A stretch of 64,000 nt of DNA, taken from assembly GCF_013315695.1 (NCBI RefSeq), contig NZ_CP054353.1; one strand, written 5' to 3'. This DNA is from Escherichia coli. GTDB taxonomy: Bacteria; Pseudomonadota; Gammaproteobacteria; Enterobacterales; Enterobacteriaceae. Position numbers: made by a program. This document shows, piece by piece, positions 60,701 through 64,000 of this stretch (position 1 is the first letter of the stretch; each line of letters begins with the position of its first letter).

Positions 60701-63700
60701 ATGCTGGCGCTATTTCCACCACCAGCCTGATTAACGCTGAAAATGCCGAACAACGCTGGCAGCGAATTTTACATATCCAACAACAACTGGCTGGTGAGCA
60801 GGTAGCGCTCTCTGATGAAGTCAACCAGTCGGAACAAACAACCAACTTCCATAACCGGGCCATTGCCTGGCTGCTGTACTCCGCTGGATATCTCTATTGT
60901 GATGCAATGGAAGCCTGTGACGTGTACACCCGTCAGTGCTCCACGCTCATCAATACTGTTGAACTGGCAACGCTTGGCGCGACGCTGGCGGCGGGGGGAG
61001 TGAATCCGCTGACGCATAAACGCGTTCTTCAGGCCGACAACGTGCCGTACATTCTGGCCGAAATGATGATGGAAGGGCTGTATGGTCGCTCCGGTGACTG
61101 GGCGTATCGCGTTGGTTTACCGGGCAAAAGCGGTGTAGGTGGCGGTATTCTGGCGGTCGTCCCTGGCGTGATGGGAATTGCCGCGTTCTCACCACCGCTG
61201 GACGAAGAAGGCAACAGTGTTCGCGGTCAAAAAATGGTGGCATCGGTCGCTAAGCAACTCGGCTATAACGTGTTTAAGGGCTGATCATGATGAACACGGA
61301 AGGTAATAACGGTAACAAACCCCTCGGTCTATGGAACGTCGTTTCCATCGGCATTGGGGCAATGGTGGGGGCGGGGATCTTCGCGCTGCTGGGGCAGGCT
61401 GCGTTGCTAATGGAAGCCTCGACCTGGGTCGCCTTTGCATTTGGCGGTATTGTGGCGATGTTTTCCGGTTATGCCTATGCGCGCCTGGGGGCGAGCTATC
61501 CCAGCAATGGCGGTATTATCGACTTCTTTCGTCGCGGATTAGGCAACGGCGTCTTTTCGCTGGCGCTCTCGTTACTGTACCTGTTGACGCTGGCGGTAAG
61601 CATCGCCATGGTCGCCCGTGCTTTTGGCGCTTATGCCGTGCAGTTTTTGCATGAAGGCAGCCAGGAGGAGCACCTTATATTGCTCTACGCGTTGGGGATC
61701 ATTGCGGTGATGACGCTTTTCAACTCCTTAAGCAACCATGCGGTAGGGCGGCTGGAAGTGATCCTCGTCGGCATTAAAATGATGATCCTGTTATTGCTGA
61801 TTATTGCCGGTGTCTGGTCGCTGCAACCGGCGCATATATCCGTCTCTGCGCCCCCCAGCTCCGGTGCGTTCTTCTCCTGTATCGGGATAACCTTCCTTGC
61901 CTATGCGGGCTTTGGCATGATGGCGAACGCGGCGGATAAAGTGAAAGATCCGCAGGTCATTATGCCACGGGCGTTTCTGGTGGCGATTGGCGTTACCACG
62001 TTGCTTTATATCTCGCTGGCGCTGGTTTTGCTTAGCGATGTATCGGCATTAGAGTTAGAAAAATATGCCGATACCGCCGTAGCGCAGGCTGCTTCTCCGC
62101 TGCTCGGGCATGTGGGTTATGTGATCGTCGTCATCGGCGCTTTACTGGCGACGGCTTCAGCCATCAACGCGAACCTGTTCGCCGTGTTTAACATCATGGA
62201 CAACATGGGCAGCGAACGCGAACTGCCGAAGCTAATGAATAAATCCCTGTGGCGGCAGAGTACCTGGGGCAACATCATTGTCGTGGTGTTGATTATGCTG
62301 ATGACGGCGGCGCTGAATTTAGGCTCACTCGCCAGCGTTGCCAGCGCCACCTTTTTGATCTGCTATCTGGCGGTGTTTGTGGTGGCGATCCGCCTGCGTC
62401 ATGATATTCACGCCTCGTTGCCGATTCTTATCGTTGGTACGTTGGTGATGTTGTTGGTGATCGTTGGCTTTATCTACAGCCTGTGGTCCCAGGGCAGCCG
62501 TGCGTTGATATGGATTATTGGTGCAATCTTACTCAGCCTTATTGTGGCAATGGTCATGAAGCGCAATAAAACCGTATAACATCTCTCTGCGCGCAGTACA
62601 GCCTGTACTGCGCCTTTGTCTTTAATTTAAATTACCTTTCTTATTCCTTTAATAAATAAGTCACAAAAAAATGATATATACGCGATAAATCTGTGATGCT
62701 AATCACTTATTACCGTGGATTATTCTCAATGTGTATGATGGTAATCTAAAAGTCGTAGTGTATTCTAAATAAATAACGTATAAGCTTTTTAGCTGCATTT
62801 CTTTGCCAATATCAATGATCGACAAAAGAGATGCACAAGTTATTACCCTTCTTAATAAAATGAGACTGGTTATAAAAACCAGTTAAAATAATGACCTGGA
62901 AGGAAGTGACTTATCTATGGCGCGATTCCAGTTTAAAAACAGTAAAAATAATGGACTTATTTTTTTAATAAGTTTTATGGTGATGGGAGAAGCTACAATT
63001 GCTGCACCGCTGCCACAATGGGCGAACGCCCCAGCGGTAACGCCAGTTGCCCAATTATCTTTACAGGAAAGTATATTACGCGCCTTTGCGCGAAATCCCG
63101 ACGTCACTCAACAGGCGGCGCAGATAGGTATTGGCGAAGCGCAAATTGATGAAGCCAAAAGTGCCTGGTATCCGCACGTTGGATTAACCGGCAATGCGGG
63201 ACCGTCCCGACAAACGGACTCCAGTGGCAGGCTTGATAACAACGTTTCGTATGGCATAACCCTGACACAGCTGGTGTATGACTTTGGTAAAACTAACAAC
63301 GATATCAAACTGCAAACTGCCGCCCGTGACAGCTACCGCTTTAAATTGATGGCAACATTAACCGATGTTGCAGAGAAAACGGCAACTGCCTATATGGAAG
63401 TCAGTCGTTATCAGGCTTTGTGCGATGCGGCTCAACGCAATATTCACTCGCTGGAAAACGTCTACAACATGGCGGCATTGCGCGCTAACGCTGGCCTGAA
63501 CTCGTCGTCGGATGAATTACAGGCCCAGACGCGCATTGCCGGAATGCGCTCAACGCTGGAGCAATATCAGGCGCAGATGGCGAGCGCCAAAGCGCAACTG
63601 GCGGTGCTCACTGGCGTACAGCCGGAGGCGATAGCCGCGCCACCTGCTGAATTAGCCGAGCAGCCGGTCTCGCTGAAAAATATTGATTACCAGTCCATCC

Positions 63701-64000
63701 CACTGGTGCTGGCGGCAGAAAACTTACGCCAGTCAGCACAGTCCGGTGTGGAAAAAACGAAAGCGCAATACTGGCCAACGCTCAGTATTCAGGGGGGCAA
63801 AACGCGTTACCAGACCAGTGACCGCTCGTATTGGGACGATCAGTTACAACTGAACGTTAACGCGCCGCTGTATCAGGGCGGCGCAGTTTCAGCCCAGGTG
63901 CAACAGGCTGAAGGGCAACAAAAAATCTCTGCCTCGCAGGTCGAACAGGCAAAACTGGACGTGCTGCAACGAGCGTCTGTGGCATATGCCAACTGGACAG

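What the first reader, a model, noticed from the sequence alone, without database searches (positions are those of the whole stretch)
62580..64000. AT-rich junction after ybaT followed by a TolC-family outer-membrane gene: probable edge of an accessory type I secretion island
After the ybaT terminator comes about 300 bp of very AT-rich DNA (62620..62916), then a signal-peptide-bearing ORF with TolC/OprM-family features running off the window. From memory, K-12 has cueR directly after ybaT. The AT-rich upstream region is typical of horizontally acquired, H-NS-silenced promoters, and a TolC-like gene at an island edge suggests a dedicated secretion system for a large exoprotein encoded beyond this window.
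Basis: partly seen in the sequence, partly recalled or inferred. Interest (0 to 1): 0.55.

Follow-up and report, generated by a model that had tools for sequence, protein, structure and literature searches.

The report
Start of known E. coli adhesin-secretion island

Summary
After ybaT (61287-62579) and its terminator hairpin (62591-62613) comes a 337-nt intergenic region (62580-62916). Its core has 29% GC, the lowest of any 300-nt stretch in the 64 kb. A signal-peptide ORF starts at 62917 and runs off the window. It is a TolC-family type I secretion outer-membrane protein (TIGR01844 413 bits against a cut-off of 225; two OEP domains).

Genomes 99.99-100% identical to the window continue with siiEA (6,818 aa BapA-related adhesin), an LssB-type ABC exporter, a HlyD adaptor and then cueR. 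This is O-island 28 of O157:H7 (z0608-z0635). Published work shows it is an RstA-activated, Ca2+-responsive adhesin secretion system. The published RstA box is present at 62623-62636 with one substitution.

The "recently acquired, H-NS-silenced" part is not supported:
- K-12's ybaT-cueR spacer keeps the last 33 codons of the HlyD gene, so K-12 carries a 25.5-kb deletion scar (4,458 of 5,426 genomes; 958 carry the island).
- The island coding DNA is 51-60% GC.
- There is no tRNA gene or annotated integrase or transposase in the island.
- The island sits at the same site in two other Escherichia species.

In the two closest genomes the ABC gene has a 4-bp frameshift. Novelty: already known.

The parts
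61287..62579 (+). ybaT (APC-family permease), the core gene that flanks the island on the left
   Evidence: ORF list; RefSeq annotation of the near-identical genome; 98.4% identical to K-12 ybaT.
62591..62623 (+). ybaT intrinsic terminator: an 11-bp-arm hairpin (62591-62613) plus a T-rich tail. The left breakpoint of the K-12-type deletion lies inside its right arm, after about 62607.
   Evidence: Terminator scan; inverted repeat I2, 100% complementary; K-12 homology ends at L002 position 254, which is window 62607.
62614..62916 (+). AT-rich regulatory region of the island operon (29% GC). It is 98-99% identical to the region upstream of tolC28 (z0608) in EDL933. That region drives RstA-dependent lacZ expression in the literature.
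   Evidence: Composition; alignment with EDL933; 89% mean column identity across three Escherichia species; PMC12758282 section 8. No Rfam family matches.
62623..62636 (+). Homologue of the published RstA box: TAATTTAAATTACC here against TAATTCAAATTACC in EDL933, at -294 to -281 from the ATG
   Evidence: Exact pattern position; alignment. The box is defined by EMSA with and without it in PMC12758282. Binding to this T variant was not tested.
62735..62766 (+). Counterpart of the BPROM-predicted promoter of the EDL933 paper (-35 ATGATG at 62735-62740; -10 region GTGTATTCT at 62758-62766). It lies in the best conserved block of the intergenic region. The transcription start has not been mapped.
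   Evidence: PMC12758282; conservation in the A2 alignment.
62865..62883 (+). 7-bp-arm inverted repeat ACTGGTT-ATAAA-AACCAGT, 34-52 nt upstream of the ATG. It could be a leader hairpin or a protein-binding palindrome. Its function is unknown.
   Evidence: Reported by the terminator-like scan on the minus strand. Only partly conserved in the other Escherichia species.
62917..64000 (+). 5' 80% of the TolC-family type I secretion outer-membrane protein gene, the orthologue of z0608/tolC28. The full protein is 451 aa. The predicted signal peptide is encoded by 62917-63003.
   Evidence: Translation; TIGR01844 413.5 bits; Pfam OEP twice; matches to PDB OprM/TolC; 97.3% nucleotide identity to the EDL933 gene.

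Best explanation
Window 62580-64000 is the left end of the chromosomal O-island 28 / siiEA island of E. coli. It holds the AT-rich regulatory region and the first gene of a gene run that has the layout of one operon: tolC-like OMP, siiEA, ABC exporter, HlyD adaptor, then cueR.

Proposed mechanism:
- The TolC-family protein is exported by Sec, with its signal peptide cleaved after TIA. It forms the outer-membrane exit duct.
- It docks with a HlyD-family periplasmic adaptor and an LssB/LapB-type ABC permease/ATPase.
- This machine secretes the 6,818-aa SiiEA adhesin in one step. SiiEA has a BapA-type N-terminal prefix domain, about 54 Ca2+-stabilised Ig-like repeats, FG-GAP and RTX repeats, and an uncleaved C-terminal T1SS signal.
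- Extracellular Ca2+ stiffens the repeats, so the protein stands out from the cell surface and mediates early attachment to epithelium.
- Transcription starts in the AT-rich region. [quoted passage not shown]

Shown here: gene identities, gene order, orthology to OI-28, conservation of the RstA box, and the species-wide distribution.
Taken from the literature: the adherence phenotype and the RstA, Ca2+ and RpoS regulation, all in O157:H7.
Inferred: that the same applies in this strain.

On evolution, the island-bearing arrangement is the older state in Escherichia. The K-12-type ybaT-cueR junction is a single 25,459-bp deletion that is now the majority allele.

In the lineage closest to this window, the ABC gene carries a 4-bp deletion that truncates it at codon 221 of 720. 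The system is therefore probably secretion-dead there.
For: - Gene identities: TolC family. SiiEA hits NF047714 at 506 bits against a cut-off of 425, plus BapA_N, 54 Ca_tandemer repeats, RTX repeats and the TIGR03661 C-terminal target domain. The ABC protein hits TIGR03375 at 837 bits against 693, and the adaptor hits TIGR01843 at 328 bits against 209.
- Gene order, with gaps of 102, 3, -4 and -4 nt on one strand and no terminator-like site between the TolC gene and siiEA.
- Window identity to genome AF3: 99.986% over 21.6 kb.
- Orthology to EDL933 OI-28.
- Published function: deletion of OI-28 or of each single gene lowers adherence and mouse colonisation, and tolC28, hlyB28 and hlyD28 are complemented. 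RstA ChIP, EMSA and lacZ data and the Ca2+ dependence are in PMC12758282.
- Z0608 is 55-fold RpoS-dependent in PMC2907692.
- Distribution: 958 of 5,426 complete genomes carry the region, always as one chromosomal copy at 92-100% identity. 4,458 carry the K-12-type junction, all at 95% identity or more to K-12.
- Deletion scar: K-12 spacer bases 3400-3493 match the last 33 codons of the HlyD gene. K-12 has a 1-nt frameshift there, and the HlyD stop overlaps the cueR start as ATGA.
- Same locus in Escherichia sp. E1V33 and E. whittamii.
- ABC frameshift in AF3 and MSB1_4I but not in MS 21-1, CE10 or EDL933.
Against: - The window stops at 64000, so the downstream genes and the ABC frameshift are inferred from near-identical genomes. 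They were not read in this genome. The window differs from AF3 by one IS1 copy and a few SNPs.
- The RstA box here carries a C-to-T change whose effect on binding is unknown.
- The box is not conserved in the two other Escherichia species.
- The transcription start site is not mapped, and consensus promoter scans give nothing above chance.
- Secretion and surface display of SiiEA have not been shown directly for this allele. In EDL933 the adhesin gene is split by an internal stop, yet the published phenotypes come from that strain.
- A single origin of the deletion is inferred from shared breakpoints, not from a phylogeny.
Confidence: 0.9

Rival explanations
1. One reading: a recently horizontally acquired accessory island inserted between ybaT and cueR, with its AT-rich promoter kept silent by H-NS.
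For: - The intergenic region is 29% GC, the lowest in 64 kb.
- The island is present in only 18% of complete genomes.
- siiEA, at 60% GC, deviates from the 52% average.
- Related TolC-adhesin modules occur in other genera in different contexts, so the module has moved at some time in the past.
- The authors of PMC12758282 also speak of possible horizontal dissemination.
- AT-rich, RpoS-dependent promoters are often H-NS targets (general knowledge).
Against: - K-12's spacer contains a decayed 3' remnant of the HlyD gene. In the island form the HlyD stop codon overlaps the cueR start codon. An insertion would not produce either feature.
- There is no tRNA gene and no annotated integrase or transposase in the island, and the direct-repeat families displayed are all internal siiEA repeats.
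- The coding DNA is GC-rich, not AT-rich, with codon usage inside or near the core range.
- The island is at the same site in two other Escherichia species.
- Sequence divergence among island copies (92-100%) is of the order of core-gene divergence in the species.
- An AT-rich upstream region is an intrinsic, conserved trait of this module in Enterobacter, Lelliottia, Budvicia and Rosenbergiella.
- No H-NS data were found. The known regulators are activators.
Confidence: 0.12
2. The TolC-like protein is the outer-membrane partner of a drug or metal efflux pump (RND, MFS or ABC) and not a dedicated protein-secretion duct.
For: - The protein is homologous over its full length to OprM and TolC of efflux pumps.
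- It gives weak hits to NodT and AdeK models.
- Its neighbours copA and cueR deal with copper.
Against: - It scores far above the cut-off only for the T1SS TolC subfamily. Its NodT score of 95 bits is far below the cut-off of 210.
- It has no lipobox cysteine.
- Across more than 20 genomes in at least nine genera (several loci are unclassified MAGs) it is followed directly by the SiiEA-type adhesin gene.
- A tolC28 deletion lowers adherence and is complemented.
Confidence: 0.03
3. In this particular lineage the region is a decaying remnant. The TolC-family gene is intact and perhaps expressed, but the system no longer secretes anything because the ABC exporter is truncated.
For: - The same 4-bp deletion (one CGCA of CGCACGCA) gives a stop at codon 221 of 720 in two independent assemblies that are 100% identical to the window over 1.6 kb: AF3 from the UK and MSB1_4I from Australia.
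- Pseudogenisation is common at this locus: siiEA in EDL933 and CE10, and an internal deletion in L035.
Against: - The window itself does not reach the ABC gene.
- The 99.9%-identical strain MS 21-1 has an intact ABC gene.
- Loss of one copy of a short tandem repeat can revert.
- siiEA is intact (6,818 aa) in AF3 and MSB1_4I.
Confidence: 0.55

Closest known systems
O-island 28 of E. coli O157:H7 EDL933 (z0608 tolC28, z0609/z0615 rtxA28/rtxB28, z0634 hlyB28, z0635 hlyD28); in RefSeq the 'BapA-related adhesin SiiEA' locus, as in UMN026 ECUMN_0527
   Same: - Same chromosomal site (ybaT to cueR) and same gene order.
- The TolC gene is 97.3% identical and the upstream region 98-99% identical, including 13 of 14 bases of the RstA box.
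   Different: - Here siiEA is one intact 6,818-aa ORF in the closest genomes. In EDL933 it is split by an internal stop.
- The ABC gene is frameshifted in the closest genomes but intact in EDL933.
- The RstA box has T instead of C at position 6.
Salmonella SPI-4 siiABCDEF (giant adhesin SiiE with its T1SS; SiiC is the TolC-like component)
   Same: - A dedicated TolC-like OMP, a HlyD adaptor and an ABC exporter encoded together with a giant adhesin of about 50 Ca2+-binding Ig-like domains.
- Used for first contact with epithelium (PMC6272769, PMC5466336; titles and abstracts seen).
   Different: - The E. coli island has no siiA/siiB (MotAB-like) genes.
- The gene order differs: OMP-adhesin-ABC-MFP here against siiA-B-C-D-E-F (A/B, OMP, MFP, adhesin, ABC) in SPI-4.
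- SiiEA has a BapA-type N-terminal prefix domain and FG-GAP repeats.
- The chromosomal site differs.
BapA (Salmonella bapABCD) and LapA-type 'two-step' T1SS adhesins (Pseudomonas LapA with LapBCE and LapG/LapD)
   Same: - BapA_N prefix domain (PF22783, NF033677), an LssB/LapB-class ABC exporter (TIGR03375), a dedicated TolC-like OMP and a C-terminal RTX plus T1SS signal.
- A TAAGG sequence at residues 97-101 resembles the di-alanine LapG site. The LapG motif is recalled from memory.
   Different: - No lapG or lapD gene is present in the island. Their presence elsewhere in the genome was not tested.
- Retention of the adhesin in the OMP and its regulated release are unproven for SiiEA.
Housekeeping TolC of E. 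coli (HlyA secretion, AcrAB efflux)
   Same: Same fold family over the full length (PDB 1EK9 and others, E-value 6e-13). It is not a lipoprotein, and it acts as the exit duct for T1SS.
   Different: The relationship is only distant (68 bits on the TolC equivalog model against a cut-off of 495). It is encoded with its own substrate and exporter and is not a shared, unlinked gene.

Membership tests
TolC-family outer membrane protein, type I secretion subfamily (TIGR01844) | Whole-protein score above the curated cut-off of the subfamily model | tested here: met
   413.5 bits against 225.15, covering residues 46-445 of 451.
TolC-family outer membrane protein, type I secretion subfamily (TIGR01844) | Two tandem OEP (PF02321) repeats | tested here: met
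   OEP at residues 49-233 (E 2.5e-27) and 264-430 (E 6.4e-20).
TolC-family outer membrane protein, type I secretion subfamily (TIGR01844) | Sec signal peptide without a lipobox cysteine (TolC type, as opposed to NodT/OprM lipoproteins) | tested here: met
   Read from the sequence: a basic n-region, a hydrophobic LIFLISFMVMG core and TIA|AP, with no Cys in the first 40 residues. The start and the APLPQW mature end are conserved in E1V33 and E. whittamii. No dedicated predictor was run.
TolC-family outer membrane protein, type I secretion subfamily (TIGR01844) | Trimeric beta-barrel plus alpha-helical tunnel | not tested
   Only sequence homology over the full length to solved OprM and TolC chains was obtained. 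No structure was predicted.
TolC-family outer membrane protein, type I secretion subfamily (TIGR01844) | Encoded with an ABC exporter, a membrane fusion protein and a substrate that has a C-terminal secretion signal | tested here: met
   Met in near-identical genomes, not in the window itself.
O-island 28 / siiEA T1SS adhesin island of E. coli | Located between ybaT and cueR in the order OMP-adhesin-ABC-MFP | tested here: met
   The left junction is in the window. The right junction was seen only in relatives.
O-island 28 / siiEA T1SS adhesin island of E. coli | Orthology of the first gene and its upstream region to z0608 (tolC28) | tested here: met
   97.3% identity over the gene and 7 differences in the 380 aligned positions upstream.
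O-island 28 / siiEA T1SS adhesin island of E. coli | RstA box TAATTCAAATTACC at -294 to -280 | tested here: inconclusive
   Present at the same position (62623-62636) with a C-to-T change at position 6. Binding was not tested.
O-island 28 / siiEA T1SS adhesin island of E. coli | All five genes intact (functional system) | tested here: not met
   In the two 100%-matching genomes the ABC gene is truncated at codon 221 by a 4-bp deletion. This cannot be read in the window itself.
Horizontally acquired, H-NS-silenced genomic island | Island DNA more AT-rich than the core genome | tested here: not met
   GC is 51% (TolC gene), 60% (siiEA), 57% (ABC gene) and 56% (HlyD gene) against 52% for the window. 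Only the 337-nt promoter region is AT-rich.
Horizontally acquired, H-NS-silenced genomic island | Mobility hallmarks at the borders (tRNA site, integrase or transposase, flanking direct repeats) | tested here: not met
   No tRNA gene. No annotated integrase or transposase in the island. The direct-repeat families displayed (20 of 55) are all internal siiEA repeats.
Horizontally acquired, H-NS-silenced genomic island | Island-free strains show an intact empty site | tested here: not met
   The K-12 spacer holds a frameshifted remnant of the last 33 HlyD codons and has lost half of the ybaT terminator.
Horizontally acquired, H-NS-silenced genomic island | H-NS occupancy and derepression in an hns mutant | not testable with these tools
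   No paper in the searched library links H-NS to OI-28 or Z0608.
LapA-like two-step T1SS adhesin system | N-terminal retention-type domain, a di-alanine site and an LssB/LapB-class exporter | tested here: met
   BapA_N at residues 5-132, TAAGG at residues 97-101, and TIGR03375 at 837 bits. The motif's meaning rests on memory of the LapG literature.
LapA-like two-step T1SS adhesin system | LapG protease and LapD c-di-GMP receptor | tested here: inconclusive
   Neither is encoded in or next to the island. The rest of the genome could not be searched.

The most novel reading that the evidence does not exclude
In island-bearing E. coli, cueR is the last cistron of the adhesin-secretion operon. 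Its start codon overlaps the HlyD stop (ATGA), its ribosome-binding site lies inside the HlyD gene, and no sigma-70 consensus promoter was found on that strand in the last 400 nt. Levels of the copper sensor would then be partly tied to RstA, RpoS and Ca2+ control of the adhesin system. In the 82% of strains with the deletion, cueR expression would run from a promoter inside the HlyD remnant or from read-through of the acid-induced glsA-ybaT operon, whose terminator was halved by the deletion. A second, weaker possibility is that SiiEA is held in this TolC-like duct by its BapA-type N-terminus and released at the TAAGG site by an unidentified protease.
Probability: 0.25. Interest if true: 0.35.

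Novelty: already known. Interest (0 to 1): 0.15.

Why it matters
The finding matters little as a discovery. The locus was listed as O-island 28 when O157:H7 was compared with K-12. RefSeq names it siiEA, and a 2025 study dissected it experimentally (PMC12758282).

It is useful for annotation. It shows that this strain, whose closest relatives were isolated from a blood culture (AF3), a rectal swab (MSB1_4I) and colon (MS 21-1), belongs to the 18% of E. coli that keep the giant-adhesin T1SS.

Two modest points go beyond the literature that was read:
- The K-12-type ybaT-cueR junction is a single 25.5-kb deletion scar carrying a HlyD gene remnant. The island is therefore an ancestral Escherichia trait that was lost, and not a pathogen-specific gain.
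- The system is often broken (ABC gene, siiEA). This should temper presence/absence scoring of OI-28 as a virulence marker.

Tried and rejected
- An Rfam scan of 62300-63200 at E<=1 found nothing.
- Sigma-70 promoter scans of the intergenic region and of the HlyD-cueR junction gave no more sites than shuffled sequence. I therefore did not place a promoter beyond quoting the published BPROM prediction.
- Short direct and inverted repeats in the AT-rich region are what AT-rich DNA gives by chance. The exception is ATTACC/GGTAAT, seen 4 times against 0.17 expected. That motif was chosen after looking, and only two of its four sites are conserved in other Escherichia, so it is recorded only as a lead.
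- A search for border hallmarks found no tRNA gene and no annotated integrase or transposase in the island. The direct-repeat families displayed were all internal siiEA repeats.
- Literature searches for H-NS together with OI-28 or Z0608 gave nothing. A search for 'SiiEA' gave only an EAEC genome paper that quotes the UMN026 annotation.
- I considered that island-plus and island-minus strains might form two old cueR haplotypes. cueR is 4-6% divergent in all three pairwise comparisons, including between two island-plus strains, so I dropped that idea.
- The efflux-pump reading of the TolC-like gene was rejected on model scores and conserved linkage.
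Full report
**1. What is in the sequence**

The last 6 kb of the window are E. coli copA (57585-60089, minus strand), glsA (60352-61284) and ybaT (61287-62579). Downstream of ybaT lies a perfect hairpin, GCGCAGTACAG-C-CTGTACTGCGC (62591-62613), with a T-rich tail. The scan scores it as terminator-like.

The intergenic region runs from 62580 to 62916 (337 nt). From 62614 onward it is 29% GC. The 300-nt stretch starting at 62615 is the GC minimum of the entire 64 kb (28.7%), and the tomB-acrB spacer is the only other trough below 36%.

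An ORF starts at the ATG at 62917, ten bases after AAGGAAG, and stays open to base 64000. Its N-terminus (MARFQFKNSKNNGLIFLISFMVMGEATIA|APLPQW) looks like a Sec signal peptide without a lipobox.

**2. What the ORF is**

I took the full-length protein (451 aa) from a genome that is 100% identical over the last 1.6 kb of the window.
- It scores 413.5 bits on TIGR01844 (type I secretion TolC subfamily, cut-off 225). It scores far below cut-off on the NodT and TolC-equivalog models.
- It has two Pfam OEP domains.
- It aligns over its full length with solved OprM and TolC chains.

**3. What lies beyond the window**

The window is 99.986% identical over 21.6 kb to E. coli AF3 (NZ_OZ547117.1). That includes an IS1 inside fsr and an IS110-family element between ybaP and copA. 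It differs from AF3 by one further IS1 copy.

In AF3 the TolC-family gene is followed by these genes:
- After a 102-nt gap: siiEA (20,457 bp, 6,818 aa, 'BapA-related adhesin SiiEA').
- After 3 nt: a type I secretion permease/ATPase.
- With a 4-nt overlap: a HlyD-family adaptor.
- With another 4-nt overlap (ATGA): cueR.

The same layout is found in MSB1_4I, MS 21-1, CE10 and O157:H7 EDL933.

Domain scans support the functional assignments:
- SiiEA has the SiiEA-specific N-terminal model (506 bits against a cut-off of 425), a BapA prefix domain and about 54 Ca2+-stabilised Ig-like repeats built from 300-nt units in ~1.8-kb super-repeats.
- SiiEA also has FG-GAP repeats, RTX nonapeptides and a T1SS C-terminal target domain.
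- The ABC protein is of the LssB class (837 bits against 693).
- The adaptor is a T1SS HlyD (328 bits against 209).

**4. It is a known system**

The region is O-island 28 of O157:H7 (z0608, z0609/z0615, z0634, z0635). A December 2025 paper (PMC12758282) renamed the genes tolC28, rtxA28/rtxB28, hlyB28 and hlyD28. It reported the following:
- Deletion of the island or of any single gene lowers adherence to Caco-2 cells and mouse colon colonisation.
- The three secretion genes can be complemented.
- RstA binds the region upstream of tolC28 (ChIP-qPCR and EMSA) through a box TAATTCAAATTACC at -294 to -280.
- Expression and adherence respond to Ca2+ through RstA.

An earlier microarray study found Z0608 55-fold and Z0609 20-fold RpoS-dependent (PMC2907692). 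Comparative-genomics papers list OI-28 as an 'RTX-toxin' island that marks the O157/O55/O145:H28 lineage.

The window's intergenic region differs from that of EDL933 at 7 of 380 aligned positions. The RstA box is at 62623-62636 (-294 to -281) with one C-to-T change. The BPROM -35/-10 elements quoted in the paper correspond to 62735-62766. This is the best conserved block when Escherichia sp. E1V33 and E. whittamii are added. The RstA box itself is not conserved in those two species.

**5. Distribution and direction of evolution**

Of 5,426 complete E. coli genomes, 958 (17.7%) carry the AT-rich region plus the TolC gene. It is always present once, on the chromosome, at 92-100% identity. Another 4,458 genomes carry the K-12-type ybaT-cueR junction in one piece, all at 95% identity or more to K-12.

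The K-12 spacer is not an empty site:
- Its first 28 bases match the island's left edge up to window 62607, inside the right arm of the ybaT terminator.
- After two unmatched bases, its last 94 bases match the final 33 codons of the HlyD gene (VVAVDIRTGKK...EYLLKPFNKAQEALRER*), with a 1-nt frameshift in K-12.

The K-12 form therefore arose by a 25,459-bp deletion. Shared breakpoints across 82% of genomes point to a single event.

Other evidence also argues against recent acquisition:
- The HlyD stop overlaps the cueR start, which an insertion next to cueR would not create.
- The island lies at the same copA-glsA-ybaT site in Escherichia sp. E1V33 and E. whittamii.
- There is no tRNA gene and no annotated integrase or transposase in the island, and the direct-repeat families displayed are all internal siiEA repeats.
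- The coding DNA is 51-60% GC with GC3 0.52-0.71, and its synonymous-codon fit is inside or near the range of 22 core genes from the window.

TolC-plus-SiiEA-like gene pairs exist in Pseudocitrobacter, Enterobacter, Lelliottia, Trabulsiella, Pluralibacter, Budvicia and Rosenbergiella, in other genomic contexts. Most of these also have an AT-rich stretch upstream (minimum 200-nt GC 0.17-0.37) of a 44-61% GC gene. The AT-rich promoter is thus a built-in trait of the module and not a sign of foreign origin.

Whether H-NS binds the promoter remains untested. I found no data.

**6. State of the system in this lineage**

In AF3 (UK, blood culture) and MSB1_4I (Australia, rectal swab), both 100% identical to the end of the window, the ABC gene has lost one copy of a CGCA tandem. 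This gives a stop at codon 221 of 720. MS 21-1 (99.9% identical), CE10 and EDL933 have the intact 720-codon gene.

siiEA is intact in AF3 and MSB1_4I but is a pseudogene in EDL933 (internal stop) and CE10 (frameshift). Another genome, L035, has an internal deletion that joins partial TolC and siiEA sequence to the HlyD gene. Decay is therefore frequent at this locus. Whether the window's own genome carries the ABC frameshift cannot be read from the window.

**7. Mechanism and confidence**

The best-supported account is as follows. The AT-rich region is the control region of an operon whose first product is the outer-membrane duct of a dedicated type I secretion machine. Together with the LssB-type ABC exporter and the HlyD adaptor, that duct exports the giant Ca2+-stiffened adhesin SiiEA for early epithelial attachment. 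Expression is switched on by RstA and RpoS.

- Shown here: gene identity, linkage and orthology.
- From the literature on O157:H7: the phenotypes and regulators.
- Inferred: transfer of these properties to this strain.

Confidence in the identification is about 0.9. Confidence that the system is inactive in this lineage is about 0.55.

**8. Verdict**

Novelty: already known. Interest is low (0.15).

The small additions beyond the literature read are the K-12 deletion scar with its HlyD remnant, the cueR overlap, and the frequency of pseudogenisation. There is also a discrepancy with the paper's statement that OI-28 is absent from ExPEC (0/55). Relatives of this window include a blood isolate (AF3, near-identical) and a neonatal-meningitis isolate (CE10, 99.4%).

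Noticed in passing
window 50923-51690 (fsr fragments at about 50389-50922 and 51661-52386): A 768-bp IS1 element interrupts fsr, the fosmidomycin MFS transporter gene, leaving two pseudogene halves. The same insertion is present in the near-identical genome AF3.
   Followed up: partly
window 11089-11856: A second, 100% identical IS1 copy lies just downstream of fadM. Relative AF3 has a further IS1 upstream of fadM, so fadM is IS1-flanked there. The window lacks that copy, which shows the window is not from AF3 itself.
   Followed up: partly
window about 56076-57101: An IS110-family ('RNA-guided') transposase gene sits between ybaP and copA. EDL933 has ybaQ (a HigA-family antitoxin) in that spacer, and CE10 has neither.
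   Followed up: no
L002 26217-28742 (between cueR and ybbJ): Island-bearing genomes (AF3, MSB1_4I, MS 21-1, EDL933) carry a further 2.5-kb, 44% GC block that K-12 lacks. It holds two small ORFs (one annotated as a lipoprotein in EDL933), a 338-aa YadA-family autotransporter adhesin and a 120-aa hypothetical protein. In K-12, ybbJ directly abuts cueR.
   Followed up: partly
L002 22482-24640; L004/L005 siiEA; L006 21976-38981; L035: Frequent decay of the island: a 4-bp deletion in the ABC gene (AF3, MSB1_4I), an internal stop in siiEA (EDL933), a frameshift in siiEA (CE10) and a large internal deletion (E. coli SCPM-O-B-8794). The published adherence phenotypes come from EDL933, where the adhesin gene is split.
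   Followed up: partly
L003 3494-3901, L002 25809-26216 and L005 4771-5178: cueR differs by 4-6% at the nucleotide level among K-12, AF3 and EDL933, although AF3 and EDL933 share the same CueR protein accession. ybaT differs by only 1-1.6% among the same strains. This local excess of synonymous diversity is unexplained.
   Followed up: partly
window 62631, 62709 and 62842 (plus strand) and 62740 (minus strand): The hexamer ATTACC/GGTAAT occurs four times in the 337-nt intergenic region against 0.17 expected (0 of 5,000 dinucleotide shuffles reached this count). One copy is the 3' half of the RstA box. Only the copies at 62740 and 62842 are conserved in other Escherichia species. The motif was picked after looking at the sequence, so the statistic is inflated.
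   Followed up: partly
L002 2310-2324 (SiiEA residues 97-101): The BapA-type N-terminal domain of SiiEA contains the sequence TAAGG, followed by a Gly/Ala-rich hydrophobic stretch (residues about 130-153). This recalls the di-alanine LapG cleavage site of LapA-type adhesins. No lapG or lapD gene is present in the island.
   Followed up: no
L009 (2,326 nt) and L038 (1,710 nt): One contig is filed under a Collinsella MAG. It carries E. coli ybaT-TolC-siiEA at 98-100% protein identity. A second contig, filed under a Bacillota MAG, carries an Enterobacter-like TolC fragment. Both are most likely binning contamination in public MAGs.
   Followed up: no
PMC12758282 compared: The paper reports OI-28 in 0 of 55 ExPEC genomes. 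Relatives of this window include a UK blood-culture isolate (AF3, near-identical) and the neonatal-meningitis strain CE10 (99.4%). In total 958 of 5,426 complete genomes carry the locus.
   Followed up: partly
window 27852-28386: The tomB-acrB intergenic region is the only other stretch of the window below 36% GC (minimum 31%).
   Followed up: no
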